Source of the DNA: Myxococcales bacterium
Lineage (GTDB): Bacteria > Myxococcota_A > Polyangia > Nannocystales > Nannocystaceae
DNA: 64,000 bases
Direction: 5' to 3'
Assembly (NCBI GenBank): GCA_020633295.1
Contig: JACKDW010000006.1
Coordinates: 206,181-270,180, forward strand
Position 1 is the first letter of the stretch; the number at the start of each line of letters is the position of its first letter. The notes beneath the pieces were generated by a model. It saw nothing but the letters and a program-made list of their open reading frames with translations. It made no database searches and was not told the origin of the DNA. Positions 156 to 49,060 of the stretch are shown here, piece by piece. The translations under genes were made by a program, and so were the position numbers.

Positions 156-2230
156 ACCCATCGCCCGTCGCGCCCTCCCCCACCTCCGATCACCCCGCCG
201 CGCCTGGCACCTCACCGAGGCGCCGCGCCCCTCGCGAGCAGCTCGACCGCGCGGAGGTGACCGTCCGCTACGCCCGCGCCGTCGCCCGGCTGGCCGCGCT
301 GCAGCGGCCCTCCGGGGCCGTCGCCGGCGAGGTCGGGTGGAACATCATGCTCGTGGCCCAGTACGTGATCCTGTGTCGCGTCGTCGGTCACGCGATCCCG
401 ACCGATCGCGCCGCGCGAATCGAGCGCGCGATCGAGCGCGCGGCTCGCCCTGACGGCGGCTGGGGCATGCACCCGCAGAGCCAGAGCTATCTGTTCCACA
501 CGCTCCTCGCCTACGTCGCGCTGCGCCTGCTGGGCCGCGCCCCCGACGACCCGCGCGTGGTCGCGGCGCGGCGCTGGATCCTCGGTCACGGCGGGGTCAC
601 CCGCGTGCCCACCTGGGGGCGCGTGTGGCTCGCGCTGCTCGGGCTGTACCCGTGGGACCACGTCCAGCCGATCGCGCCCGAGCTGTGGCTTCAGCCGGCG
701 GCCTCCCCCGCGCACCCCCGGCGCTTCTACTGCCACCTGCGCCTGATCTACCTCGGGCTGTCCTACGTCTACGGGTCGCGCCTGACCGCGGATCCGTGCG
801 CGCGGCTCGACGCGATCAAGCGCGAGCTGTACCCGGGCGGCTACGACGCGGCCCCGTTCGCCGCCCACCGGCACGAGGTCGCGTCGACCGACCTGTACGA
901 ACCAACAGGTGTGACCCTGCGCGCGCTGCTCGACGGCGTTCGCCGCGTCGAGGGGCGGGTCCCCGCCGCGCTGCGCCGTCGCGCGCTCGCGCGGGCCATG
1001 GACCACATCCGCTTCGAGTTCGAGAGCACGGACTACGTGTGCCTGAGCCCGGTCAACGGCATGCTGTTCTGCCTCGCGCTGTTCGCCGAGGATCCCTACC
1101 ACCCCGACCTCCCCCGCGCGCTCGCGGGGATCGAGTACTGGGTGTGGGAGGATGACGACGCGGGCATGCGCATCGCCGGCGCCCGCAGCGACATCTGGGA
1201 CACGAGCTTCGCGGTGCAGGCGCTGTGCGAGGGCCCGCGCGTCGACCACACCGCCCAGCTCGTCACGCGCATGTGCGACTGGCTCGCGCGCGCCCAGCTG
1301 CGCGCGGACATCCCGGGCGGCGCCGAGCACTACCGCGCCCCCGCGCGCGGCGGCTGGGGCTTCGCCGACGAGCGCCACCCGTGGCCGGTCAGCGACTGCA
1401 CCGCCGAGGCGATCGAGGCGCTGCTCGCCGCGGATCGCCTGCGACTCGGTCCCGACATCGCGCCGGATCTCGCGGCGGCCGTCGGCTTCATCCTCGCGCG
1501 CCAGAACGACGACGGCGGCTTCGGCTCCTACGAGGCGCGACGCGGCAGCCCGCTGCTGCGCCGCTTCAACCCGGCCGAGATCTACGGCAGCTGCATGATC
1601 GAGGAGAGCTACACCGAGTGCACCGCGAGCTGCGTGCGCGGCCTCGTCGCCGCGCGCGCGGAGCTCGGGCCGAGCGCGCCGCGGCGACTCCGTCGGGCGA
1701 TCGACCGCGCCGTTCGCCGCGGCGCGCGGCGTCTGCTCGCGGCCCAGGAGCGCTCGGGCGCCTGGGCTGGCTTTTGGGGCATCCACTACACCTACGGGAC
1801 GTTCTTCGCGGTCTCCGCGCTGCGCGCGGCCGGGCTGCCCGCGACCCACGCCGCGCTGCTGCGCGCGCGCGACTGGCTGCTCGAGCACCAGCGCGTCGAC
1901 GGCGGCTGGGGCGAGAGCCACGAGGGGCTGCTCCACGGGCGCCCCGCGCCGCTCCCCCCCGGGGATCCGAGCCTGGTTGTTCAGACAGCCTGGGCCGCGC
2001 TCACGCTGCTCGAGCTCCGCGCCGGCGCCAACGCCCGCGTCGACCAGGCGATCGAGCGCGCGATCGGGCTGCTCGCCGCGCGACAGCGCGCCGACGGGAG
2101 CTGGCCGCGCGAGCCCGCGACCGGCGTGTTCTTCAACACCGCGGTGCTCGACTACGATCTCTACCGCCAGGTGTTCCCGACCTGGGCGCTCGCGCGCTTC
2201 AGCGCGCGCGTCACTCGCTCGCCGGGTTGA
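152..2230 (+). CDS. Oxidosqualene cyclase (lanosterol/cycloartenol synthase family triterpene cyclase)
   Basis: 692 aa. Multiple QW-type repeats (GWG...). The catalytic-aspartate motif VSDCTAEA is the oxidosqualene cyclase (OSC) signature DCTAE, rather than the DxDDTA of squalene-hopene cyclases. Start is GTG at 152. Confidence 0.85.
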   Translation: MNPSPVAPSPTSDHPAAPGTSPRRRAPREQLDRAEVTVRYARAVARLAALQRPSGAVAGEVGWNIMLVAQYVILCRVVGHAIPTDRAARIERAIERAARPDGGWGMHPQSQSYLFHTLLAYVALRLLGRAPDDPRVVAARRWILGHGGVTRVPTWGRVWLALLGLYPWDHVQPIAPELWLQPAASPAHPRRFYCHLRLIYLGLSYVYGSRLTADPCARLDAIKRELYPGGYDAAPFAAHRHEVASTDLYEPTGVTLRALLDGVRRVEGRVPAALRRRALARAMDHIRFEFESTDYVCLSPVNGMLFCLALFAEDPYHPDLPRALAGIEYWVWEDDDAGMRIAGARSDIWDTSFAVQALCEGPRVDHTAQLVTRMCDWLARAQLRADIPGGAEHYRAPARGGWGFADERHPWPVSDCTAEAIEALLAADRLRLGPDIAPDLAAAVGFILARQNDDGGFGSYEARRGSPLLRRFNPAEIYGSCMIEESYTECTASCVRGLVAARAELGPSAPRRLRRAIDRAVRRGARRLLAAQERSGAWAGFWGIHYTYGTFFAVSALRAAGLPATHAALLRARDWLLEHQRVDGGWGESHEGLLHGRPAPLPPGDPSLVVQTAWAALTLLELRAGANARVDQAIERAIGLLAARQRADGSWPREPATGVFFNTAVLDYDLYRQVFPTWALARFSARVTRSPG

Positions 2231-3509
2231 CCTCGATCGTCGGCTCGACGCGCTCGACGCTGACGCGGATCACGTGGCGGTCGTCGGCCGCGAGGACCTT
2301 GAAGCGGATGTTCTCCCACACGAACACGGAGCCCGCGATCGGGATCTGACCGGCGAGGCGCGTCAAGAGATCGCCGATGCTGTCGACGCCCTCGAGCTCC
2401 TCGAACTCCTCGATCTTCAGGCGCTCCTCGACCCGCGTCAGGCTGTCCTGACCGTGGAAGTAGTAGACGCCGTCCTGCTGCTCCGGGCCCGAGCGCAGCG
2501 GCGCGCGGTCGGACTCGTCGAAGATCTGGCCGACGATCTGCTCGAGCACGTCCTCGAGCGTGATCACGCCGACCGTGTCGCCGGCGTCGTCGACGACGAT
2601 CCCGAGGTGCACGCGCTGCTCCTTGAAGCGGCGCAGCACGTCGTGGAGGCGCTGGGACTCGCTCACGAACACCGGCGGCCGCAGGATCCGCTCGATGGTC
2701 TCCTGGTCCGCCAGGCCGACGAGCTGCTTGATGTGCAGGATCCCGCGGATGCTGTCGACGTTGCCCTGGTAGACCGGCAGCCGGCTGTGGCCCGAGCGGA
2801 TCGCGACCTCGCGCACCTGCCGGGCGTCCCACTCGAGGTCGACGGCCGTCACGTTGTCGACCGGGACCATGATGTCGCGGACGATCTTGTCCTCGAAGCT
2901 GACGATGCGGCGCAGCAGCGCGGCCTGGTCGGCGTTGATCGAGCCCTGGCTGCGCCCGACCTTCACGAGGTAGCCGATCTCGTCCGACGTGACCGGGCTC
3001 GAGAGGCTGAGGTTGCCGCCGCCCGTGAAGCGCTTGAGCACGAAGTTCGTGATCCGCGTCAGCAGCCACAGCGCCGGCGACATCACGCGGCTGAGCGCGC
3101 TCAGGACCCCGAGCGCGGGCAGCGAGAGCTGCTCGCTGTAGGCGCGGCCGATCGCCTTGGGCGTGATCTCGCCGAAGATCAGCAGCAGGATGGTCGTCAG
3201 CACCACCGCGCCGCCGACCGCGTACTCGCCGTAGGGCCCCCCGTTGAGGTGGCGGATCGCCAGCGCGGTGACCAGCGCGCCCATGAGCGTGTTCGTGATG
3301 TTGTTGCCGACGAGGATCGTCGACAGCACGCGCACGGGGTGGTTGACCCAGAACTCCATCAGGCGACCGCGTCGCCCGCCCTCCTCGACCACGCGCCGGG
3401 CTCGATGGACGTCGAGGCTGGTGATCGCGGTCTCCGAGCCCGAGAAGAACATGCTCCCGATCACGCACAGCGCGACCACGAGCACCTGGAAGGCGTCGGT
3501 GTCATCCAT
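2211..3509 (-). CDS. CNNM/CorC/HlyC-family transporter-associated protein (DUF21 transmembrane domain + CBS pair + CorC_HlyC C-terminal domain)
   Basis: 432 aa. N-terminal hydrophobic DUF21-like region (VVALCVIGSMFFSGSETAITSL), CBS-like middle region, conserved CorC C-terminal segment. 3' end overlaps the convergent cyclase gene by 20 nt. Confidence 0.8.
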   Translation of the reverse strand: MDDTDAFQVLVVALCVIGSMFFSGSETAITSLDVHRARRVVEEGGRRGRLMEFWVNHPVRVLSTILVGNNITNTLMGALVTALAIRHLNGGPYGEYAVGGAVVLTTILLLIFGEITPKAIGRAYSEQLSLPALGVLSALSRVMSPALWLLTRITNFVLKRFTGGGNLSLSSPVTSDEIGYLVKVGRSQGSINADQAALLRRIVSFEDKIVRDIMVPVDNVTAVDLEWDARQVREVAIRSGHSRLPVYQGNVDSIRGILHIKQLVGLADQETIERILRPPVFVSESQRLHDVLRRFKEQRVHLGIVVDDAGDTVGVITLEDVLEQIVGQIFDESDRAPLRSGPEQQDGVYYFHGQDSLTRVEERLKIEEFEELEGVDSIGDLLTRLAGQIPIAGSVFVWENIRFKVLAADDRHVIRVSVERVEPTIEVNPASE

Positions 3510-4149
3510 GGCGACGAGCTCCCGGCGCGCGCGCGCGCCTCTGCGCGACGCGCCAGCGCGCGACAGGTTCGGGAACGTCGTCGTCAGCGTGTTCGGGGGC
3601 GTTCATGACTGCGAGAGCGTGCGCGCGAGCGACGAGGACCGCAGCGCGATGGAGCGGCTGGCCGCCCCACCCCGTCGGTGTACGGCGCACACACCCGATC
3701 GAGTGTGCCGCGCGCCCATACCATCGTCGTCATGCCCAGTCCTTCCGCGATATCGCGCTCGTCCGCTCACCTTCGATGTCGCCCCTCGAATTGGTCTGCA
3801 CCCGTCGTCGCCCGGCCTTCGCCGGCCTCGCTCGGGCCGCGATGGTCCTCGGCAGGATCCTCGGGATAGCGTCGGTTGTCCGGGGTGCGCTGGCAAGTCC
3901 GAACCTCGAGCGGGTTTCGAACGCTGTTCGTGGGCGGATTTGAGCGAAAATTGCACCGCGCGCGAACACCACGACACGCGTGTCAGGGTGGGATTTGCGA
4001 ACATCGCGCAGCTCGGACATTTGCGTCATAGCATGGACCCAAACTGCAGCCAGCGCCGCCTTCACTGAAACAATTTCAACGAGTTAGTGTGATGGATCAA
4101 TCCATGCTTCTAGTTCGGGCGTCGGCGGGACCCGCCGTACACTTCCTCA

Positions 4150-4320
4150 TCAAACCGTAGCTTGGCTTACCACTCGCTTGACTTGACCTGACCTGACTTG
4201 AACTGCACCTGGCTTACGTGACTTCCGGCCTACCTTAACTCACTTCGCTTAACGCATTGCTTAGCCTGGCCTGGTTTCACGTCTCTTGAGCTTATCTTGC
4301 GCTTGACTTGACTTATCGAA
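4150..4320. repeat. AT-richer intergenic island with tandem YTGAC pentamer arrays (cTTGAC TTGAC cTGAC cTGAC TTGAAC at ~4178-4204; cTTGAC TTGAC TTatcg at ~4296-4314) and recurring GCTTA words
   Basis: Read directly. GC content drops sharply relative to flanks. No ORF with plausible composition. Confidence 0.6.
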
Positions 4321-4450
4321 GACGACGAGCGCGTTCGCGCTTTCGCATGGTCGGTGCTGCTATCGAACATCTAAACTGGGGGGGGACCCAGGATGGCCTG
4401 GTCAGCTGTCCTGGGTTTCCGTTTTGGTTGGCGCTGGGTCCTCGCGCCAG

Positions 4451-5404
4451 CTAGCGCTCGTGCAGGTGGTCGTCGGGCTCGGGCACCCGATCCGCGAGCC
4501 GCCAGACCTGCTCGGCCGGCACCCGGTCCTCGATCCCCTCCTCGAGCTCGAGGCGCCCGGGGTCGTCGACGGGCAACGGCAGACGCGCGGCGTCGAGCAC
4601 GAGGTGGGCCCGCAGGGCGCACTGGGGCCCCAGCGGCATCGCGTGCAGCGCCGGCGCCCAGCCGTCCCTGCCAACTACAGCTGGCTCGAGGTGCAGGCGC
4701 CCGTCGCAGCGCGGGCACGGGATCTTGTGGTCCTGCTCGCCGCGCCACAGCGTGATCAGCGGCGGGTCGCCGCGGCCGTGCACGCGGCGGGCCTCGGACC
4801 ACCAGCGCGCGTCGAAGCGGTACACGCCGGGCAGCGCGTCCGCCGGGAGGATCCGCGCGCAGCCCTCGGTCCCGAGCAGCCAGCGCGCCGCCAGGTAGTA
4901 GGCCGGCGCCTGCCGGCCCTCGTGCTCACGTGTCTCAACGAACAGCAACGGGTGCTCGAAGTGGGGATCGAGCGACCACGAGCGCGCCAGCTCCTCGCGC
5001 GCGGCCCCGGCGAGCCGCCAGAACCGGTGCCCGACGACGACCCGCGTCAACCGATCGACGAACACGAACAGGACGTTCGAGAGCTTGCGCCACGGGTCGA
5101 TGGAGAGATCGCAGACCTTGAGCTTGTCGCACACGAGCCGCCCGGAGCGCCGCCGCCACACCGACACGAGCTTCAGCTCGATGCGGTCCTCCCAGTCGAG
5201 CACCGCGTCGCCGTCGTGGGGCTCGAGCCCGAGGTGCCACTGCAGCGCGTTGCCGTGGCGCCCCCGCGAGCGACGGCGCGTCACCAAGCGGGCCGCCGGG
5301 CCGAGCGGCAGCCCGAGCGCGGCCTCGGCGAGCGCCTCGAGGTACGCGCAGCGCCGCGCGGGCGCGTCGCGCCCAGGCGGCGGGTGACGTATCGGCATGC
5401 GCAC
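4451..5404 (-). CDS. Hypothetical protein (317 aa). Possible PD-(D/E)xK-like motif (HDGDAVLDWEDRIELKLV) and Cys-pair CPRCDGRL.
   Basis: Long ORF with protein-like composition (K, I, F, W present, unlike the Arg/Ala-rich artefact frames). Sits immediately downstream of the small lipoprotein gene. Confidence 0.45.
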   Translation of the reverse strand: MRMPIRHPPPGRDAPARRCAYLEALAEAALGLPLGPAARLVTRRRSRGRHGNALQWHLGLEPHDGDAVLDWEDRIELKLVSVWRRRSGRLVCDKLKVCDLSIDPWRKLSNVLFVFVDRLTRVVVGHRFWRLAGAAREELARSWSLDPHFEHPLLFVETREHEGRQAPAYYLAARWLLGTEGCARILPADALPGVYRFDARWWSEARRVHGRGDPPLITLWRGEQDHKIPCPRCDGRLHLEPAVVGRDGWAPALHAMPLGPQCALRAHLVLDAARLPLPVDDPGRLELEEGIEDRVPAEQVWRLADRVPEPDDHLHER

Positions 5405-5461: not shown

Positions 5462-5635
5462 CTACTCCTCCGCGTCCGCGTCCGGCTTCGCCTCGTCGTC
5501 CGCCTTCTTGGCGTCCTTGACGTTCTTGGTGTCCTTCTTGGCCGCGGGCTTCTCCTCTTTCTTCTTTCCGGGCTGCTCCGCGCAACCGAAGCTCACCAGC
5601 GAGAACCCGAGCAACAAAAACGCCATCTTCTTCAT
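5462..5635 (-). CDS. Small Lys/Glu-rich lipoprotein (signal peptide MKKMAFLLLGFSLVSFGC lipobox, then KKKEEKPAAKKDTK...)
   Basis: Start placed at the internal MKKM of ORF 5462..5710 and may be off by 1-3 nt. Classic lipobox. Confidence 0.45.
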   Translation of the reverse strand: MKKMAFLLLGFSLVSFGCAEQPGKKKEEKPAAKKDTKNVKDAKKADDEAKPDADAEE

Positions 5636-5706
5636 CGTCGACACCCTCCTCGCCCGCGCGCGGGCCGAGATAATGTACCCGACGGTATCGAGTTTTCGCG
5701 CCGCCG

Positions 5707-6180
5707 TCATGCCGTGCCCGCGACGGCTTTGAGGATGGTCTCGCGGATCTGGTTCGCGGTCGCGTAGTCCGGGCAGTAGCTCAGCGCCGGGTCTCGGCTT
5801 GACAACGCACGAAACCGCCGCTCTTCGCTCGCGAAGTCATACGAGAGGATCACCGGCCCGCGGAAGCCCGCGTCGCGCAGCGCTCGCAGGATGAACATGC
5901 CCTGGTTGTCCTGCTGAAAGCTGCGCGCGCGCGCGACGTCCCCGTTGAAGCGCGCCGTCAGGGACACGAGGTCGCCGAGCAGCGCCTCGACCGGGGTGCG
6001 ATCGAAGCGCATGTCGAGGTACACGACGTCGGGCCGCTGGCTCCGCGCGAGCGCGCAGGCCTGCTCGCCGCTGCGCGCCTGGGTGTAGCGCATCCCCTCC
6101 GCGACGAAGGTCGACAGGTTCGTCAGGTACTCGTCGCCGTCCTCGACCACGAGCACGTGCACGGGTCGTCCGCTGCTCAT
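5707..6180 (-). CDS. Single-domain response regulator (receiver domain)
   Basis: VHVLVVEDGDEY...VVYLDMRF receiver motifs. Start ATG at 6178-6180 overlaps the TGA stop of the upstream kinase gene (ATGA). Confidence 0.75.
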   Translation of the reverse strand: MSSGRPVHVLVVEDGDEYLTNLSTFVAEGMRYTQARSGEQACALARSQRPDVVYLDMRFDRTPVEALLGDLVSLTARFNGDVARARSFQQDNQGMFILRALRDAGFRGPVILSYDFASEERRFRALSSRDPALSYCPDYATANQIRETILKAVAGTA

Positions 6181-9100
6181 GCCTCCTCCTCCTCGACCGT
6201 GAAGAACCTCAGCACGACCGCCTTCTGCCACCCCTGCTCGGGCTCGACCGCGATCGAGCCATCATAGCGCGACAGCAGGTCCGCGGTGATGCCCATGCCG
6301 CGCTCGACATAGCGCCCGCGCAGCATCTCGTTGCTGAGCTTCTCGGTCGACTGGTCCTTGATGCGGATCGCCAGCGTCGTCAGCCCCGTGATCTCGTCCA
6401 TCTCGTTGATCAGCTCCACGCCGAGGCGGATCGGCTTGGGCGCGTACAGGACGCTCGAGTGCAGCGAGTTGCGGATCACGTTCGTCAGGATGTCGTCGAG
6501 GTCCGTGCGGAACACCCGGATCGCCGCGCCCTCGCCCGTCACCTCGGGCGCCGCGACCTCGACGCCCGCGAACTGGGACTCGGTGACGACGAGCGCGTGC
6601 ACCTCCTGCAGCGTCTCACGATCGACGCGCACGATGCAGAGCGATCGGATCAGGCTGCTGAGGCGCTCGAACGCGTCGCGCCCGAGGATCTGCCCGCAGC
6701 GCAGCAGGCGCTTGGACCAGTCGAGCTTCCGCGACGCGCTCGCGTTGTGCTGCAGCTCGCTGAGGCCGCGCAGCGACTCGAACGCGCGGATCATCTCGCG
6801 GAAGATCGGGTCCTTGCGGTGGAGGTTGAGCGTGACGCCGTGGCTGCGCGCGACTTTCTCGAGCTCGTCGACGTAGCCGAGGAAGCGCCCGTAGATGCCC
6901 TGATCCCGGGTTGAGCGCTCGCGCTCGGCGCTCGCGCGCCCGCGCCCGCGTCGACGCCGAGATGGCTCTCCGAACAGGCGCCGCGCGACGATCGACGCGC
7001 GGTTCTCCGCGCCCGGCTCGTCGACCTCGAGCGCGTGCCCGACATCGCTCAAGAACGCGGTGTTGTGCTTGAGGATCTCGTGGCGGATCAGGCTCAGGAT
7101 CCGCGCGATCTCGGGGAAGCTCGTCGGCGCGCGCTCGAGCAGCTGGCTCAGCGACGCGCCGCGGAAGCGCCGGTAGATCCGCAGCGCCGGCAGCGAGATC
7201 AGCAGGAGCCCGAGCGCGCTCGCGAGGATGTAGATCTGCAGGAACCAGGCGTCGAGGTCGTCGCGCAGCTCGAGCGCGACGTCCCAGTGAAGGTCGAAGT
7301 CGCTCGCCTCCTGGAAGTACAGGTCGAGCTGCTCCGACGCGCCGACCAGGCGGTACTTCTCGAGCAGCAGCTGCGCGACCAGGAAGCGCCCGATCGTCGA
7401 GCCGAGCTCGGCCGCGCGCTGGAGGTGTGGGAGCGCCTCGTCGGGCAGCTCCTTGCGCAGCAGCAGCCCCAGGCGCTCGTGGACCTCGCGCTGGTCCTCC
7501 TTGAGCTGCAGCGAGCGCTCCCAGAACGAGCGCGCGTCGCCGGGGCGGTTGTCCGCGGACGCGACCTTCGCCAGCTCGTTGAGGACCACGACCTCGCCGG
7601 GGAACTTCTTCAGGGCGCGCCGCAGGATCTTGTCGGCCTGCGACCAGTCGCCGTCGTCGCCGACGCGCAGGTAGGCCTCGTTGATCATCCGCTGCAGCTC
7701 GGGCTCGAGGCGGCGGAGGTCGCTCGGCGGCGCGAGCGGGATCGCGGGCTCCTCCTCGCGCAGGCGGAAGTCGAGGTTGCGCAGCGCCTCGGCGGCGCGC
7801 GCGTAGTCGGGGTGATCCGACGACACCTCCTCGAGGAAGCGACGGTAGTGCACGCGCGCGCGCTCGCGGTTCGTCCGCGCGTACAGCTCGCCCAGGAACA
7901 GGCGCAGCTGATGCAGATCCGGGCGCAGCTCGAGCGCCTTCTCGAGGTGCTCGATCGCGGCGCGGTCCTCGGTCGGCGAGAGGCGCTTGGCGTAGATCAG
8001 CCCGAGGCGCATGTGCGCCTCGTAGTCGAAGCGATCGAGCCGTATCGCCATCCGCAGCTCGTGCACCGCGTCGGCGAAGCGCTCCTGGCGGGCGTAGACG
8101 AGCCCCTGCACGTAGCGCGCGCGCTGAAACCACGGCGAGTCCTTGATCGTGCGCTGCAGCTCGGACTCGGCGGTCACCAGATCGTTGCGCTTGATCGCCT
8201 CGACCGCGCGATCGAAGCTCGCCTGCGCCTCCGGCGTCGGGCGCCCGCCCTGCTCCTTCTCGATCGTCGCGAGCTCGAGCTCGAGCTGAAGATCCTCGAC
8301 GGCCTTGCGCGCGCGCTGCGAGAGCGGGTGCCCCGGGTACGCGCTGATCAGCTGCGTGTAGACGCTGATCGCCTTGGCCGTCTCGCCGCGATCCTGATAA
8401 CTCCCCGCGAGCCGGCTGAGCGCCTCCGCCTGGGGCGTCCTGCCGTCGCGCGTACACTCCTCGCGGTAGCGCTCGATGTCGCCGATCGCCTCGTCGCGCA
8501 GCGCCTGGGCCTCGCGCGTCGAGCCCAGCGACTCCGCGCGCTCGAGCCGGAGCTTGGCCAGCGTGAAGCGGATGTCGTCGGGGCGCCCCGGCGTCTCGGG
8601 GTCCTCCTCGGCCATCTCGACCGCGAGGTTGAGGCGCTCGTCCTGGTAGCGCTCCCCGCACTCAGCCATCCACGCGAACACGTTCGCGCGCTCCTCGAGC
8701 CACAGCCCGCGCGGATCGTAGGTCCGCAGCATCTTGAGATCCGCGATCGCGCGCCGCGGGCAGCTGCGCCGCTTCGGCTTGGTGTAGTGCAGGTGCGCGC
8801 GCCCGCGCAGCGCCCCCGGATCCCCGCGCTGGAGCTTGAGCGCCGACGAGTACTCGCGGATCGCCTCGTCGACGCGCCCCTCGCGTTCGAAGCGCTGCGC
8901 GCGGCTGAGGTGAATGTCGAACTCGAGCGCGCGCATCTCCGCCGGGTCGCCGTCGGGCACGTCGAGCCCGTCGGTGTCGCCGTCCTCGTCGTCGGTGTCG
9001 GGGCCGGGCGGCCGCGGCAGCCCTGGGTCGCCCGCGCCGGCGCGGCGATCGAGCACGCCGGGGAGCGGGTCCTCGGCCGGGGCCCGGCGCGCCCACGCAG

Positions 9101-9185
9101 TACCTGACCCAAGAGCCAGAAAACACGCGAGCGCGAGCGTCCGCCGGCGGCGCCGCGAGAGGGGCTCGATCGTGCTCGTCTCCAC
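6177..9185 (-). CDS. Sensor histidine kinase with signal peptide, large extracytoplasmic TPR-repeat domain, one TM helix and C-terminal HisKA/HATPase-like region
   Basis: 1002 aa. N-terminal signal (LALACFLALGSGTAWA), many TPR-like repeats, TM (LQIYILASALGLLLISLPAL), H-box-like IRHEILKHN, N-box-like ILTNVIRNSLHSS, G-box-like ERGMGITADLLSRYDGSIAV. GTG start at 9183-9185. Confidence 0.7.
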   Translation of the reverse strand: METSTIEPLSRRRRRTLALACFLALGSGTAWARRAPAEDPLPGVLDRRAGAGDPGLPRPPGPDTDDEDGDTDGLDVPDGDPAEMRALEFDIHLSRAQRFEREGRVDEAIREYSSALKLQRGDPGALRGRAHLHYTKPKRRSCPRRAIADLKMLRTYDPRGLWLEERANVFAWMAECGERYQDERLNLAVEMAEEDPETPGRPDDIRFTLAKLRLERAESLGSTREAQALRDEAIGDIERYREECTRDGRTPQAEALSRLAGSYQDRGETAKAISVYTQLISAYPGHPLSQRARKAVEDLQLELELATIEKEQGGRPTPEAQASFDRAVEAIKRNDLVTAESELQRTIKDSPWFQRARYVQGLVYARQERFADAVHELRMAIRLDRFDYEAHMRLGLIYAKRLSPTEDRAAIEHLEKALELRPDLHQLRLFLGELYARTNRERARVHYRRFLEEVSSDHPDYARAAEALRNLDFRLREEEPAIPLAPPSDLRRLEPELQRMINEAYLRVGDDGDWSQADKILRRALKKFPGEVVVLNELAKVASADNRPGDARSFWERSLQLKEDQREVHERLGLLLRKELPDEALPHLQRAAELGSTIGRFLVAQLLLEKYRLVGASEQLDLYFQEASDFDLHWDVALELRDDLDAWFLQIYILASALGLLLISLPALRIYRRFRGASLSQLLERAPTSFPEIARILSLIRHEILKHNTAFLSDVGHALEVDEPGAENRASIVARRLFGEPSRRRRGRGRASAERERSTRDQGIYGRFLGYVDELEKVARSHGVTLNLHRKDPIFREMIRAFESLRGLSELQHNASASRKLDWSKRLLRCGQILGRDAFERLSSLIRSLCIVRVDRETLQEVHALVVTESQFAGVEVAAPEVTGEGAAIRVFRTDLDDILTNVIRNSLHSSVLYAPKPIRLGVELINEMDEITGLTTLAIRIKDQSTEKLSNEMLRGRYVERGMGITADLLSRYDGSIAVEPEQGWQKAVVLRFFTVEEEEA

Positions 9186-9188
9186 GCG

Positions 9189-10907
<1,719 letters not shown>

Positions 10908-11614: not shown

Positions 11615-12088
11615 TCACGCGGGCGCGTGGTAGCGAGTCGCGCGCGCGCGCCCCGAGCTCGCGATCTTCCCCATCTTCTTCATCCACGCGAGGTAGCCGC
11701 GAAGCTCCGCGACGTCGACCACGACCTGCTTCGCCAGCTGCCCGATCGTCAGCGGGCCCTGCTGGACGGCGACGAGGATGTCGCGATACAGGCGCGCCTC
11801 TCGGCTCTCGGTCGTCTCGCCGTCGCCCTCGCTGCGCGCGAGCGCGACGACCTTGCGTCGCGAGGAGCGGGCGCCCTCAGGCGGCGCTTCGCCGCCGAGC
11901 TGACCGAGCGCCTCGCGGAGCTCGTCGATCGTCAGCTCGCGGATCGACGCCCCCGCCTCGCTGTCGAGCAGCTCGCGGAGCTTGGTCGTCGGGGGCATCT
12001 TGGCGACCGTGTTGATGGCGGCCTTGCGTAACAGGTTGGCGCGGTTCTGCTGGAGCGCCGCCTCGATGAGCTGGGCGATCTCTGTCAT
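11615..12088 (-). CDS. Hypothetical protein (157 aa)
   Basis: ORF with plausible composition. First gene of the putative minus-strand operon. Start uncertain (no obvious RBS; internal Met at residue 31 is an alternative). Confidence 0.4.
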   Translation of the reverse strand: MTEIAQLIEAALQQNRANLLRKAAINTVAKMPPTTKLRELLDSEAGASIRELTIDELREALGQLGGEAPPEGARSSRRKVVALARSEGDGETTESREARLYRDILVAVQQGPLTIGQLAKQVVVDVAELRGYLAWMKKMGKIASSGRARATRYHAPA

Positions 12089-12228
12089 GATGGGACGATG
12101 CGTTTCTGGTGTATGACGGGGAGCGCGTACACGCGTGTCAGGGGGGGTCCGCCGCGTCGCGGTGGCACGAGCAGAGACGCCAGCGCGCGGCCGACGTCGC
12201 GTCCTCTAGGTCCGTAAACCAGGAAGAT

Positions 12229-47668: not shown

Positions 47669-49060
47669 TTGCGATCCGCACGACGCACGCACGCTACCAC
47701 CTCCACCCCACACGCACGCGACATCGCGCCGCAGCGCCGTCGCGCGTCGTCCCTCGCGCTCGTGTCCGCGCTCACCCTGTGCACGCACGCCGCGTGCGCC
47801 CCGGTCGCGCGCGCCCCGAACCACGAGCACGCCGTGAAGCCCGATCGCGACCACGACGCCCACGATCCCGCCGCGCCGCGTGAGCCCGCCGCGACCCTCG
47901 AGCTCGTCGAGAGCTGGCCGCTCGAGACCCGCCTCGCGCAGCCCGACCTCGTCGACGCCGCGCGCGCGTGGGTGGAGATGATCGACGGCGCCGAGACGAC
48001 CATCGACCTCGCCGAGTTCTACGGCGCGACCGTCGAGGGCGGCGCGCTCGAGCCGGTGATCGAGGCGCTCGAGCGCGCCGCCGCGCGCGGCGTCACGATC
48101 CGCGCGCTGTTCGACCGCAGCTTCCACGAGAAGATGCCCGCGGTCCCCGACCGCCTCGCCGCGATCGCCGGCGTCGACGTCCGGCTCATCGACGGCGCGC
48201 GCTACGGCGAGCGCGGGGTCCTGCACGCCAAGTACTTCGTCGTCGATCGCCGCGCGCTGTTCCTCGGCAGCCAGAACTTCGACTGGCGGGCGCTCGAGCA
48301 CATCCTCGAGCTCGGCGTGCGCCTGCGCCACGACGGCCTCGCGCGCCGCTTGACCTGGCTGTTTGAGCACGACTGGGCGCTCGCCGGCGGCGCTGACCCG
48401 ACGGGGGCGCGCGCGACCGCGGACCGCGCGGCCGCGAGCCCGCCGCCCGACGGCGACGACGCGGCGCGCTTCGGCGACGAGCCGCTCGCGCTCGAGCTGC
48501 TCGCCAGCCCGCGCGACGCCCTCGAGCGCCCCGGCGACTGGGACCTCCCACGGCTCGTCGCCGCCATCGACGGCGCGCGCGCGGACGTGCGCGTGCAGCT
48601 GCTCAGCTACGGCACCGAGCCCCCGGACGGCGACGACGCGGCGCGCTTCGCCGCGCTCGACGACGCGCTGCGCCGCGCGGCCGCCCGCGGCGTGCGGACG
48701 CGGCTGCTCGTCGCCCACTGGAGCACGGCCGAGGACCGCCTCGCGCCGCTGCGCGCGCTCGAGCGCGCCGCCAACCTCGAGGTCGCGTTCGTCACGATCC
48801 CGCCCCACAGCGGCGGCTTCATCCCCTTCGCGCGGGTCGCCCACAGCAAGTACCTCGTCGTCGACGAGGCGCTCGCGTGGATCGGCACGAGCAACTGGTC
48901 GCGGGAGTACTTCTACGGCAGCCGCAACGTCGGGCTGCTCGTCCGCGGCGGCGCGGTCGCGCGGCGGCTCGCGCGGCTCTACGATGACCTCTGGGACAGC
49001 TCGTACACCACCCGCCTCGACCCGGACGCGAGCTACCCGCCGCCGCGCGTCGCCGAGTGA
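47669..49060 (+). CDS. Phospholipase D-family protein with two HKD motifs (cardiolipin synthase/PLD-like), predicted secreted lipoprotein
   Basis: HAKYFVVDRRALFLGSQNFD and HSKYLVVDEALAWIGTSNWS (HxKxxxxD x2). Signal LALVSALTLCTHAAC. Exact start uncertain. Confidence 0.75.
   Translation: MRSARRTHATTSTPHARDIAPQRRRASSLALVSALTLCTHAACAPVARAPNHEHAVKPDRDHDAHDPAAPREPAATLELVESWPLETRLAQPDLVDAARAWVEMIDGAETTIDLAEFYGATVEGGALEPVIEALERAAARGVTIRALFDRSFHEKMPAVPDRLAAIAGVDVRLIDGARYGERGVLHAKYFVVDRRALFLGSQNFDWRALEHILELGVRLRHDGLARRLTWLFEHDWALAGGADPTGARATADRAAASPPPDGDDAARFGDEPLALELLASPRDALERPGDWDLPRLVAAIDGARADVRVQLLSYGTEPPDGDDAARFAALDDALRRAAARGVRTRLLVAHWSTAEDRLAPLRALERAANLEVAFVTIPPHSGGFIPFARVAHSKYLVVDEALAWIGTSNWSREYFYGSRNVGLLVRGGAVARRLARLYDDLWDSSYTTRLDPDASYPPPRVAE

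What the first reader, a model, noticed from the sequence alone, without database searches (positions are those of the whole stretch)
3510..4450. ~940-bp gene-free tract with an AT-rich island and tandem TTGAC pentamer arrays
In a genome packed at >90% coding density, this region has no ORF with protein-like composition; the only ORFs are Arg/Gly-rich artefacts. Its core (4090-4340) drops far below the genomic GC. It contains two arrays of tandem YTGAC pentamers (4178-4204 and 4296-4314) plus repeated GCTTA words, strongly strand-asymmetric (pyrimidine-rich on the plus strand). It lies between the 3' end of the TPR-kinase/sigma-54 operon and the promoter of the CorC gene. Candidate functions: a multi-site binding array for a response regulator, an sRNA gene, or a decayed insertion.
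Basis: seen in the sequence. Interest (0 to 1): 0.55.

Follow-up and report, generated by a model that had tools for sequence, protein, structure and literature searches.

The report
Sigma-54-driven repeat-rich noncoding RNA gene
The AT-rich island with the TTGAC repeats is a previously undescribed noncoding RNA gene of about 310 nt, conserved across the myxobacterial family Nannocystaceae, with its own sigma-54 promoter, activator-binding sites and terminator; its many copies of a short motif (CUUGGCUU and variants) suggest it soaks up an unknown RNA-binding factor.

Summary
There is no gene in 3510-4450, GC falls to about 0.54 in 4000-4400, and the TTGAC/GCTTA repeats are real and non-random.

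The tract has two parts:
- 3510-3960 is an ordinary GC-rich spacer upstream of the CNNM/CorC gene.
- 3973-4429 is a complete + strand transcription unit. It has two palindromic activator sites (UAS), an IHF-like box, a GG-N10-GC sigma-54 promoter, an RNA of about 310 nt and an intrinsic terminator.

The same architecture occurs once per locus in 32 other Nannocystaceae genome loci. Five are cultured strains: Plesiocystis, Enhygromyxa, Nannocystis, Pseudenhygromyxa and Paraliomyxa. It also occurs in 23 metagenome contigs.

- The terminator stem covaries: 10 of 16 pairs change on both sides.
- Its loop keeps UGGUC.
- The RNA body carries 5-16 copies of C-Y-U-G-R-C-U-U, against 1-3 in shuffles, always on the transcribed strand.
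- The body evolves by tandem duplication.
- There is no conserved ORF and no Rfam match.

The window's pentamer arrays are overlapping copies of this motif. A sigma-54 activator gene lies 4.8 kb away in conserved synteny.

Best reading: a sigma-54/enhancer-dependent regulatory RNA that titrates an unidentified RNA-binding factor, analogous to CrcZ or CsrB but unrelated in sequence and motif. The gene is well supported. The sponge mechanism is inferred.

The parts
3510..3960 (.). GC-normal spacer upstream of the CNNM/CorC gene. It is not part of the RNA unit and is presumably the CorC promoter and leader.
   Evidence: GC is 0.67-0.73. There is no Pfam hit and no gene call. 3510-3740 is not conserved even in the 90%-identity relative L003. 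tblastx finds nothing. In most relatives argC/argB/M20 genes sit here instead.
3973..3985 (+). UAS1: distal palindromic activator site, GACACGCGTGTCA (family consensus CACGACATCnnTGTCATGG), centred near -140.
   Evidence: It falls in near-invariant columns of the 29-sequence upstream alignment. The pattern GACAYNNNNGTCA has 3 hits in 64 kb, 2 of them here.
4016..4029 (+). UAS2: proximal activator site, GACATTTGCGTCAT (consensus CGGACATCnGCGTCATACC), centred near -97.
   Evidence: The UAS1-UAS2 gap is 30-33 nt in 29 loci. The UAS2-to-promoter distance falls into classes of 62-64, 72-76 or 85 nt, i.e. steps of one helical turn.
4069..4086 (+). Conserved A/T-rich IHF-like box, AACAATTTCAACGAGTTA (TTTCAA-N4-TTR).
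   Evidence: The columns ATTTCAA...TTG are conserved in the upstream alignment. Reading it as an IHF site is by resemblance to WATCAANNNNTTR (own knowledge) and was not tested.
4093..4108 (+). Sigma-54 type promoter, TGGATCAATCCATGCT (GG at 4094-4095, GC at 4106-4107, 10 nt between them).
   Evidence: The same position holds TGGC(A/C)C-N5-nTGC(A/T) in 28 of 29 loci and TGGCCC-N5-TCGC in L023. The window's copy departs most from the consensus.
4119..4429 (+). Predicted noncoding RNA of about 310 nt. The start is inferred as 12 nt after the -12 GC, and the end as the T tract of the terminator.
   Evidence: It is bracketed by the promoter and terminator. Composition is A 0.16, C 0.30, G 0.26, T 0.28. 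The longest ORF with a start codon that ends inside the RNA is 10 aa, and no ORF is conserved in the family. nhmmer profiles find one copy per locus.
4121..4139 (+). 5' GC-rich hairpin (GTCGGCGGGACCCGCCGTA).
   Evidence: It is seen in the sequence. Similar hairpins follow the start in many relatives, but not in the L011-L015/L020/L032/L034 group. Covariation was not tested.
4159..4316 (+). Motif-rich body with 13 sites of C-Y-U-G-R-C-U-U, including the exact CTTGGCTT at 4161-4168.
   Evidence: PWM scan: 13 sites against a mean of 1.2 in shuffles. Motif positions are predicted to be more often unpaired than the rest (0.55 against 0.40, family means).
4177..4204 (+). Pentamer array 1: (CTTGA/CCTGA) x5. 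These are overlapping motif copies that share their CUU.
   Evidence: TRF: period 5, 5 copies. Spacing 5 is the commonest inter-site distance in the family, 49 cases.
4296..4315 (+). Pentamer array 2: CTTGCGCTTGACTTGACTTA.
4324..4346 (+). GC-rich hairpin preceding the conserved box (CGACGAGCGCGTTCGCGCTTTCG).
   Evidence: Per-sequence folds give a hairpin of -10 kcal/mol or better in 18 of 25 relatives, with different sequences, but the z-scores are not significant. This is a weak feature.
4349..4357 (+). Conserved single-stranded box GGUCGGUGC.
   Evidence: It falls in invariant or near-invariant columns of alignment A1. CGGTGCTG occurs in 18 of 29 RNAs against 0.3 expected.
4378..4385 (+). 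G run (8 G), conserved as CUGGGGGG. Its 3' part forms the base of the terminator stem.
   Evidence: CTGGGGGG occurs in 25 of 29 RNAs against 0.4 expected.
4382..4429 (+). Intrinsic terminator: 16-bp stem (4382-4397 with 4405-4420), loop CUGGUCA (4398-4404), T tract 4422-4429.
   Evidence: The terminator scan finds it. 91.8% of cells are paired, and 10 of 16 pairs change on both sides; 0 of 500 shuffles reach the covariation score, and slid controls give 37-60% paired. RNAalifold predicts the same helix on its own. TGGTC is invariant in the loop of all 29 aligned copies.

Best explanation
Window 3973-4429 is a self-contained gene for a noncoding RNA of about 310 nt on the + strand.

Transcription is inferred from sequence and conservation. 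A bacterial enhancer-binding protein binds the two palindromes at about -140 and -97. It is most likely the receiver-domain sigma-54 activator encoded 4.8 kb away at 9189-10907. An IHF-like box helps bend the DNA, and sigma-54 RNA polymerase starts about 12 nt after the -12 GC. A 16-bp hairpin plus T tract ends the RNA about 20 nt before the stop codon of the convergent gene.

Function is inferred by analogy. The purine-poor, weakly structured body displays about a dozen copies of C-Y-U-G-R-C-U-U, and the related UGGUC sits in the terminator loop and in the GGUCGGUGC box. These act as decoy sites that titrate an as yet unidentified single-strand RNA-binding factor. When the activator is switched on, that factor is drawn away from its normal targets.

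The window's TTGAC pentamer arrays are overlapping copies of this motif, and motif number changes by tandem duplication.
For: Unit boundaries:
- The sigma-54-type GG-N10-GC element sits at the same place in 29 of 29 loci.
- Two UAS palindromes have fixed 30-33 nt spacing, and the distance to the promoter changes in helical-turn steps.
- The + strand intrinsic terminator covaries.
- In L023 the whole unit is inverted as a block relative to its neighbours.

Conservation:
- One copy per locus occurs in 33 Nannocystaceae genome loci, 5 of them cultured strains.
- A scan for the control region alone found 20 canonical and 3 divergent copies in metagenomes.

Noncoding:
- There is no conserved ORF. 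The longest ORFs differ in place and frame, and repeat periods of 5, 10, 11 and 20 nt do not keep a reading frame.

Motif:
- CTTGGCTT occurs 60 times in 11.8 kb of RNA, against 1.8 expected and 3 in 430 kb of flanking DNA on both strands.
- There are 5-16 sites per RNA against 0.7-2.7 in shuffles.
- The motif is found only on the sense strand.
- The divergent subfamily (L061, L076) has lost the pyrimidine-rich spacers, the 3' domain and the synteny, yet keeps CUUGGCUU in 10 or more regular tandem units.
- Motif positions are predicted to be more often unpaired.

Activator:
- A Sigma54_activat protein with a receiver domain lies in conserved gene order next to the RNA in the window, L003, L049-L051, L058, L063 and L067.
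- No other strict UAS pair or comparable promoter lies within the 20-kb loci.
Against: - There are no expression data of any kind. The start site, the RNA's length and its very existence are predictions.
- The window's own promoter is the weakest match in the family (TGGATC...ATGCT against TGGCMC...YTGCA). Its motif copies are mostly the CUUGAC/CUGAC variants, with only one exact CUUGGCUU.
- No candidate RNA-binding partner was found. The conserved neighbours are a MutH-like nuclease, a lipoprotein, a receiver-like protein and a TPR protein.
- No target sites outside the RNA were found in 430 kb.
- The motif matches no binding site known to me, so titration of a protein rests on analogy alone.
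- Folding energy of the whole RNA is no better than shuffles (z = 0.07). The unpaired bias of the motif against its immediate surroundings is small (0.55 against 0.49).
- The link to this particular activator rests on synteny only.
Confidence: 0.5

Rival explanations
1. The unit is a real sigma-54-dependent RNA, but it acts by base pairing. The repeated CUUGRCUU units would be multiple seeds that pair with AAGYCAAG-like sequences in mRNAs, or that sponge another small RNA. Alternatively the RNA is cut into several small RNAs, as the modular NtrC/RpoN-dependent NrsZ of Pseudomonas is.
For: The evidence for the gene is the same as in the main explanation. The motifs are single-stranded and pyrimidine-rich, like the C/U-rich seeds of several known sRNAs (own knowledge). 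The modular tandem units in L061 and L076 recall NrsZ modules (PMC4253122).
Against: Ten or more copies of one seed is unusual for base-pairing sRNAs. The complement AAGCCAAG was not found in the RNAs and the motif is very rare in 430 kb of flanks, though only a small part of each genome could be searched. G/A wobble at motif positions 4-5 would change the pairing partner unless that partner has U there.
Confidence: 0.2
2. The RNA's job is local rather than regulatory in trans. Convergent transcription or read-through antisense RNA would modulate the activator/TPR/p317 operon. Or the C/U-rich unstructured transcript would act as a loading or decoy site for Rho or RNases.
For: The RNA ends about 20 nt from the stop of the convergent p317 gene in nearly all loci. 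The body is C/U-rich and G/A-poor, like Rho utilisation sites (own knowledge).
Against: A strong, covarying terminator is conserved, which argues against read-through as the purpose. In L023 the unit is inverted, so its promoter rather than its end faces p317. The divergent subfamily has other neighbours and non-pyrimidine spacers but keeps the exact motif. This points to sequence-specific recognition, not mere composition.
Confidence: 0.08
3. The repeats work at the DNA level, as an array of binding sites for a response regulator or other DNA-binding protein. The flanking promoter-like and terminator-like signals would be incidental.
For: Direct repeats of short words are typical of some regulator-binding arrays, and two-component genes are nearby.
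Against: All copies lie between a conserved sigma-54 promoter and a covarying terminator, and only on the transcribed strand (117 against 0). Spacing is irregular, 5 to more than 60 nt with no helical phasing. Copy number and spacers turn over rapidly by duplication. The real conserved DNA sites are the two palindromes upstream.
Confidence: 0.03
4. The tract is a decayed insertion or pseudogene, or a small-protein gene, and the hairpin is merely the terminator of the p317 operon.
For: The island differs in GC from the genome. The hairpin abuts the p317 stop codon. The arg genes found here in relatives are missing in the window.
Against: The element is present once, in the same place and with the same architecture, in all 33 genome loci that span several genera. 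There is no conserved ORF and no protein similarity. On the minus strand the hairpin is followed by CCCCCCCC rather than a U tract. In L023 the hairpin stays with the RNA unit, not with p317.
Confidence: 0.02

Closest known systems
CrcZ / CrcY of Pseudomonas (CbrA/CbrB- and RpoN-dependent sponge RNAs for Hfq/Crc)
   Same: Both are stand-alone noncoding RNAs of a few hundred nt. Both are transcribed from a sigma-54 promoter under an NtrC-family response regulator encoded nearby. Both carry several copies of one short unpaired motif that in CrcZ sequesters a translational repressor (PMC5113210, PMC4063720). Both end in an intrinsic terminator.
   Different: There is no sequence or Rfam similarity. 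The CrcZ motif AAnAAnAA occurs zero times in 29 RNAs, which contain only 8-19% A. The motif here is CYUGRCUU, the partner is unknown, and the phylum differs (Myxococcota). The activator gene is 4.8 kb away and convergent, not immediately upstream.
CsrB / CsrC / RsmX-Y-Z (CsrA/RsmA-sequestering RNAs)
   Same: Both show many repeats of a short motif, copy number that varies between species, evolution by duplication, control by a two-component system, and the motif also displayed in a hairpin loop (here UGGUC in the terminator loop).
   Different: The defining A(N)GGA motifs are absent: a mean of 0.6 A.GGA per RNA and none in the window's copy. Body motifs here are mostly in unstructured sequence rather than in hairpin loops. 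The promoter is sigma-54 type rather than a GacA/UvrY-dependent sigma-70 type. There is no Rfam hit.
NrsZ of Pseudomonas aeruginosa (NtrB/C- and RpoN-dependent, modular, processed sRNA)
   Same: Both have sigma-54 and NtrC-type control of a noncoding RNA built of repeated modules (PMC4253122). In most relatives the RNA here sits next to arginine biosynthesis genes, a possible nitrogen link.
   Different: NrsZ modules are stem-loops that are cut apart. Here the repeat is an 8-nt linear motif with irregular spacing, and processing could not be tested. There is no sequence similarity.
Pxr, the only characterised myxobacterial sRNA
   Same: Both are regulatory RNAs of Myxococcota.
   Different: [quoted passage not shown] Nothing in the tract reached significance against Rfam. 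The RNA here is 3-5 times longer, repeat-based and found in Nannocystaceae.

Membership tests
Sigma-54 / enhancer-dependent promoter | -24 GG and -12 GC separated by 10 nt (TGGCAC-N5-TTGCW). | tested here: met
   Window TGGATCAATCCATGCT at 4093-4108. The consensus-like TGGC(A/C)C-N5-nTGC(A/T) sits at the aligned position in 28 of 29 loci.
Sigma-54 / enhancer-dependent promoter | Upstream activator sites about 80-150 bp from the promoter, usually paired palindromes. | tested here: met
   Two palindromes at about -140 and -97 are conserved in all aligned loci. Their spacing is 30-33 nt, and the distance to the promoter changes in steps of one helical turn.
Sigma-54 / enhancer-dependent promoter | Sigma-54 and a cognate AAA+ activator are present, and transcription depends on them. 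| not testable with these tools
   A Sigma54_activat protein is encoded at 9189-10907 and in synteny elsewhere. Dependence needs genetics or in vitro transcription.
Rho-independent terminator | GC-rich hairpin followed by a U tract on the transcribed strand. | tested here: met
   Stem 4382-4420, T tract 4422-4429. Covariation in 10 of 16 pairs.
CsrB/RsmZ-type CsrA sponges | Many A(N)GGA / GGA motifs, mostly in hairpin loops. | tested here: not met
   A.GGA: 0 in the window RNA and a mean of 0.6 per RNA in 29 copies. No Rfam match.
CrcZ/CrcY-type Hfq/Crc sponges | Several A-rich AAnAAnAA motifs. | tested here: not met
   0 occurrences in 29 RNAs. No Rfam match.
CrcZ/CrcY-type Hfq/Crc sponges | RpoN promoter activated by an NtrC-family regulator encoded nearby. 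| tested here: met
   (architecture only; activation was not tested).
Protein-sponge RNAs in general | Demonstrated binding and titration of a protein by the repeated motif. | not testable with these tools
   Only motif multiplicity, strand specificity and conservation could be shown.
Type III toxin-antitoxin antitoxin RNA | Equal-length tandem repeats followed, past a terminator, by a toxin endoribonuclease gene on the same strand. | tested here: not met
   Spacing is irregular. The next gene is convergent and MutH-like.
Any Rfam 15 family | Covariance-model match at or near the gathering score. | tested here: not met
   The best hits in 3300-4700 have E of 1.3 or worse and lie outside the RNA. 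There are 0 matches at gathering score in six other loci.

The most novel reading that the evidence does not exclude
The RNA defines a new post-transcriptional control system in Myxococcota. It would be a sigma-54-switched decoy whose CUUGGCUU repeats titrate a global RNA-binding regulator of a kind not yet described in bacteria. That regulator's specificity would be unlike CsrA, Hfq or ProQ. It could even be the conserved 1000-aa helical-repeat (TPR) protein encoded in the same gene string, acting like a PPR/PUF-type single-strand RNA reader.
Probability: 0.4. Interest if true: 0.8.

Novelty: new variant of a known kind. Interest (0 to 1): 0.68.

Why it matters
Myxobacteria are rich in sigma-54 activators, yet only one regulatory RNA (Pxr) has been studied in the phylum, and none in the marine and saline Nannocystaceae.

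This element gives a concrete, family-wide, single-copy target. It has a clear on-switch (a dedicated enhancer and activator) and a clear read-out (an 8-nt motif repeated about 10 times).

If it is a sponge, the motif is a ready-made bait for finding a new RNA-binding regulator and its regulon. Five cultured strains carry the gene, so the idea is directly testable.

It also shows convergent evolution of the CrcZ/CsrB design: a two-component signal, a repeat-rich decoy RNA and release of targets, here with an unrelated motif.

Tried and rejected
- Rfam scans, permissive on the tract and at gathering score on six relatives, found nothing relevant.
- tRNA/tmRNA search found nothing in the tract.
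- Whole-RNA folding on both strands gave no thermodynamic signal (z = 0.07 and -0.35).
- A sigma-70 promoter scan found none.
- I first took CATGGACCCAAACTGCAG (4032-4049) for the sigma-54 site, but its GG-GC spacing is 9 nt. The alignment with relatives moved the promoter to 4093-4108.
- The coding hypothesis was rejected.
- The pseudogene or remnant idea for 3510-3975 was rejected.
- A second copy in the window or loci was sought with nhmmer and none was found.
- A partner was sought among conserved neighbours. p317 turned out MutH-like, and the small neighbouring ORF is a Lys-rich lipoprotein. Neither suggests RNA binding.
- Motif copies outside the RNA, as possible natural targets, were sought: only 3 in 430 kb, none informative.
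- The hairpin before the GGUCGGUGC box is present in most copies but not statistically convincing. RNAalifold did not recover it.
- Literature searches for any ncRNA in Nannocystis, Enhygromyxa or Plesiocystis found none.
Full report
**What is in the sequence**

The window comes from a Nannocystaceae/Polyangia (Myxococcota) metagenome-assembled genome. The identical stretch is contig JAGQIM010001275 of GCA_020431325.1.

The tract 3510-4450 lies between two minus-strand genes. One is the start of a CNNM/CBS/CorC_HlyC gene (2211-3509). The other is the stop of a 317-aa gene (4451-5404). That 317-aa gene closes a minus-strand string: sigma-54 activator with receiver domain (9189-10907), 1002-aa TPR protein (6177-9185), receiver-like protein (5707-6231), small lipoprotein (5462-5710) and p317.

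No ORF in the tract has a Pfam hit, and public gene calls leave it empty.

GC is 0.535-0.56 over 3900-4400 against 0.67-0.78 around it, with negative GC and AT skew. The stretch 3510-3900 has normal GC.

**From tract to transcription unit**

A terminator scan finds one + strand site. It is a 16-bp stem (4382-4420) followed by a T tract.

I fetched 46 loci from species-representative genomes using the CorC protein. blastn of the tract against them showed that the last 95 nt or so (4337-4430) are conserved in at least 15 Nannocystaceae loci.

Printing these loci in the window's orientation revealed one shared layout, in this order:
- two palindromes
- an A/T-rich box
- a GG-N10-GC element
- a G-rich start
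- a long pyrimidine-rich body full of CTTGGCTT-like words
- a conserved GGTCGGTGC box
- a G run
- a terminator whose loop reads YTGGTCR

The upstream alignment of 29 copies has near-invariant columns at four places:
- CACGACATCnnTGTCATGG (window 3973-3985)
- CGGACATCnGCGTCATACC (window 4016-4029)
- ATTTCAA-N4-TTG (window 4069-4086)
- TGGC(A/C)C-N5-nTGC(A/T) (window TGGATCAATCCATGCT, 4093-4108)

The gap between the two palindromes is 30-33 nt in 29 loci. The distance from the second palindrome to the promoter falls into classes of 62-64, 72-76 and 85 nt, i.e. whole helical turns. This is the expected behaviour of an enhancer that must face the promoter.

In the 64-kb window the palindrome pattern GACAYNNNNGTCA has three hits, two of them here. 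No similar UAS pair occurs elsewhere in 20-kb loci from three cultured strains.

**The RNA**

With the start about 12 nt after the -12 GC and the end at the T tract, the window's RNA spans about 4119-4429 (about 310 nt). Relatives range from 275 to 564 nt.

The terminator helix is strongly supported:
- 91.8% of cells are paired.
- 10 of 16 pairs change on both sides.
- 0 of 500 shuffles reach the covariation score.
- Slid controls reach only 37-60% paired.
- RNAalifold finds the same helix independently.

The loop keeps TGGTC in all 29 aligned copies. My search for the hairpins required that word. However, profile searches that did not require it hit the same places, one per locus.

No ORF is conserved. 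The longest ones differ in position and frame and all start with TTG or GTG, never ATG. The window's longest ORF with a start codon that ends inside the RNA is 10 aa. Rfam has no match here or in six relatives.

**The repeats**

k-mer counts over 29 RNAs (11.8 kb) give:
- CTTGGCTT 60 times against 1.8 in dinucleotide shuffles
- TGGCTT 117 times against 11.8

An iterated position matrix converges on C-Y-U-G-R-C-U-U. It finds 5-16 sites per RNA against 0.7-2.7 in shuffles. The window has 13 against 1.2.

The commonest spacing is 5 nt, because adjacent copies share their CUU. That is exactly the window's (CTTGA)n and (CCTGA)n arrays. Other spacings spread over 9-26 nt and beyond without phasing.

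The motif never occurs in reverse complement within the RNAs. It occurs only 3 times in 430 kb of flanking sequence on both strands.

Bodies evolve by tandem duplication of motif-bearing units (L010, L015, L019, L021, L023, L034). Motif positions are predicted to be somewhat more often unpaired than the rest (0.55 against 0.40). The whole RNA is no more stable than shuffles.

**Breadth**

The element is present once in every locus that covers the place. That makes 29 full copies, three more from cultured strains and one cut by a contig end.

The cultured carriers are Plesiocystis pacifica SIR-1, Paraliomyxa miuraensis, Pseudenhygromyxa sp. WMMC2535, Nannocystis sp. ILAH1 and Enhygromyxa salina.

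Gene order is conserved: activator, TPR, receiver-like, (4HBT), lipoprotein, p317, then the RNA, then (arg genes) and CorC. In L023 the whole unit is inverted as a block.

One metagenome scan with a pattern for the control region alone returned 28 hits:
- 20 are canonical copies with p317 synteny.
- Three (L061, L075, L076) form a divergent subfamily. It has other neighbours and another 3' end. In L061 and L076, which were read in full, it has regular tandem units, for example about 20 nt x 10 in L076. These units still carry CUUGGCUU even though the spacers are no longer pyrimidine-rich.
- Five belong to other organisms that use the same type of palindrome and a sigma-54 promoter. Four of them (L052, L054, L060, L079) place it in front of small protein genes; what follows it in L077 was not worked out.

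Survival of the exact 8-mer when everything else has changed is the strongest argument that the motif itself is the functional unit.

**How it most likely works**

Shown by sequence and comparison:
- a bounded, conserved, noncoding unit
- a sigma-54/enhancer-type control region
- a terminator
- a multi-copy, sense-strand motif

Inferred:
- The neighbouring receiver-domain activator binds the palindromes.
- The RNA acts in trans as a decoy for a single-strand RNA-binding factor.

The closest functional model is CrcZ of Pseudomonas. It is a sigma-54/CbrB-dependent RNA whose repeated A-rich motifs sequester Hfq/Crc (PMC5113210, PMC4063720). CsrB/RsmZ and the modular NtrC/RpoN-dependent NrsZ (PMC4253122) are further analogues.

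Membership in any of these families fails on their defining motifs: A.GGA averages 0.6 per RNA, AAnAAnAA occurs zero times, and none of their Rfam models match. This is therefore an analogue, not a homologue.

**What I could not settle**

There are no expression data.

No partner was found. p317 models confidently (pLDDT 91) and resembles MutH, a DNA nuclease. The small neighbour is a lipoprotein. The TPR protein remains an untested long shot.

The window's own copy has the least canonical promoter and mostly variant motifs, so it may be weaker than its relatives. The closest relative, L003, has a canonical promoter and a similar body.

A base-pairing or processed-RNA mechanism, and a local antisense or Rho-related role, remain possible.

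**Verdict**

The finding is real and more interesting than first scored. It is an undescribed, family-wide, sigma-54-dependent, repeat-rich noncoding RNA.

- Confidence that it is an RNA gene: about 0.9.
- Confidence that it is sigma-54/enhancer controlled: about 0.8.
- Confidence that it works as a protein sponge: about 0.45-0.5.

Noticed in passing
window 4451-5404 (minus): The conserved 317-aa neighbour has no Pfam or NCBIfam hit, and the named hits all come from Nannocystaceae or unclassified Myxococcales. It models at pLDDT 91, and its only significant PDB fold match is the DNA mismatch endonuclease MutH (2aor_B, E 2e-4). It has invariant E-x-K and a C-x2-C...H/C cluster in the C-terminal part.
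   Followed up: partly
L061:10-900, L076:11500-12380 (minus), L075: A divergent subfamily of the RNA with the same control region but different neighbours (NUDIX, MarR, ornithine carbamoyltransferase in L076). It has a different 3' end and very regular tandem units (about 20 nt x 10 in L076, about 36 nt x 5 in L061) built around CUUGGCUU.
   Followed up: partly
L052, L054, L060, L079 (about 600-1500) and L077: Lower-GC contigs from other organisms use the same palindrome type (CATGACAnnnnTGTCAT, twice, about 32 nt apart) plus a TGGCAC-N5-CTGCA promoter. In L052, L054, L060 and L079 this sits in front of a small Cys-rich ORF, followed by repeated CACCCTTGACAnnnnTGTCAGGGGTGCTATCTTGTGGACTCGGGC units that precede further small ORFs. 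This may be a mobile element or phage module. What follows the promoter in L077 was not worked out.
   Followed up: no
window 3510-3960 versus L049-L051, L004-L008: In most relatives arginine-biosynthesis genes (argC, argB, an M20 peptidase) lie between the RNA's enhancer and the CorC gene. In Nannocystis sp. ILAH1 argC starts only about 70 nt from UAS1. The window and L003 have lost these genes from this spot, and the window also lacks the 4HBT thioesterase gene found between the receiver-like gene and the lipoprotein gene.
   Followed up: partly
window 12129-12147: A sequence nearly identical to UAS1 plus its flank (GTACACGCGTGTCAGGGGG) lies about 40-60 nt upstream of the first minus-strand gene of the activator string (start at 12088). 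On that strand GTCATACACC is nearby. It may be an autoregulatory site for the same activator.
   Followed up: no
L019 about 4400-4600: The RNA body in this genome contains a long run of CCTATTTGAA 10-mers interrupted by a 100-N assembly gap. The repeat array was evidently too regular to assemble, so true RNA lengths may be underestimated in some MAGs.
   Followed up: no
window 5462-5710 (minus): A small ORF encodes a lipoprotein signal (LLLGFSLVSFGC|AEQ) followed by a Lys/Asp/Glu-rich low-complexity tail. It is conserved in position in Pseudenhygromyxa, Nannocystis and Enhygromyxa.
   Followed up: partly
window 48077-48163 (minus): ARAGORN calls a tRNA-Thr(CGT) of 87 nt, about 10 nt longer than usual for this tRNA type.
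   Followed up: no
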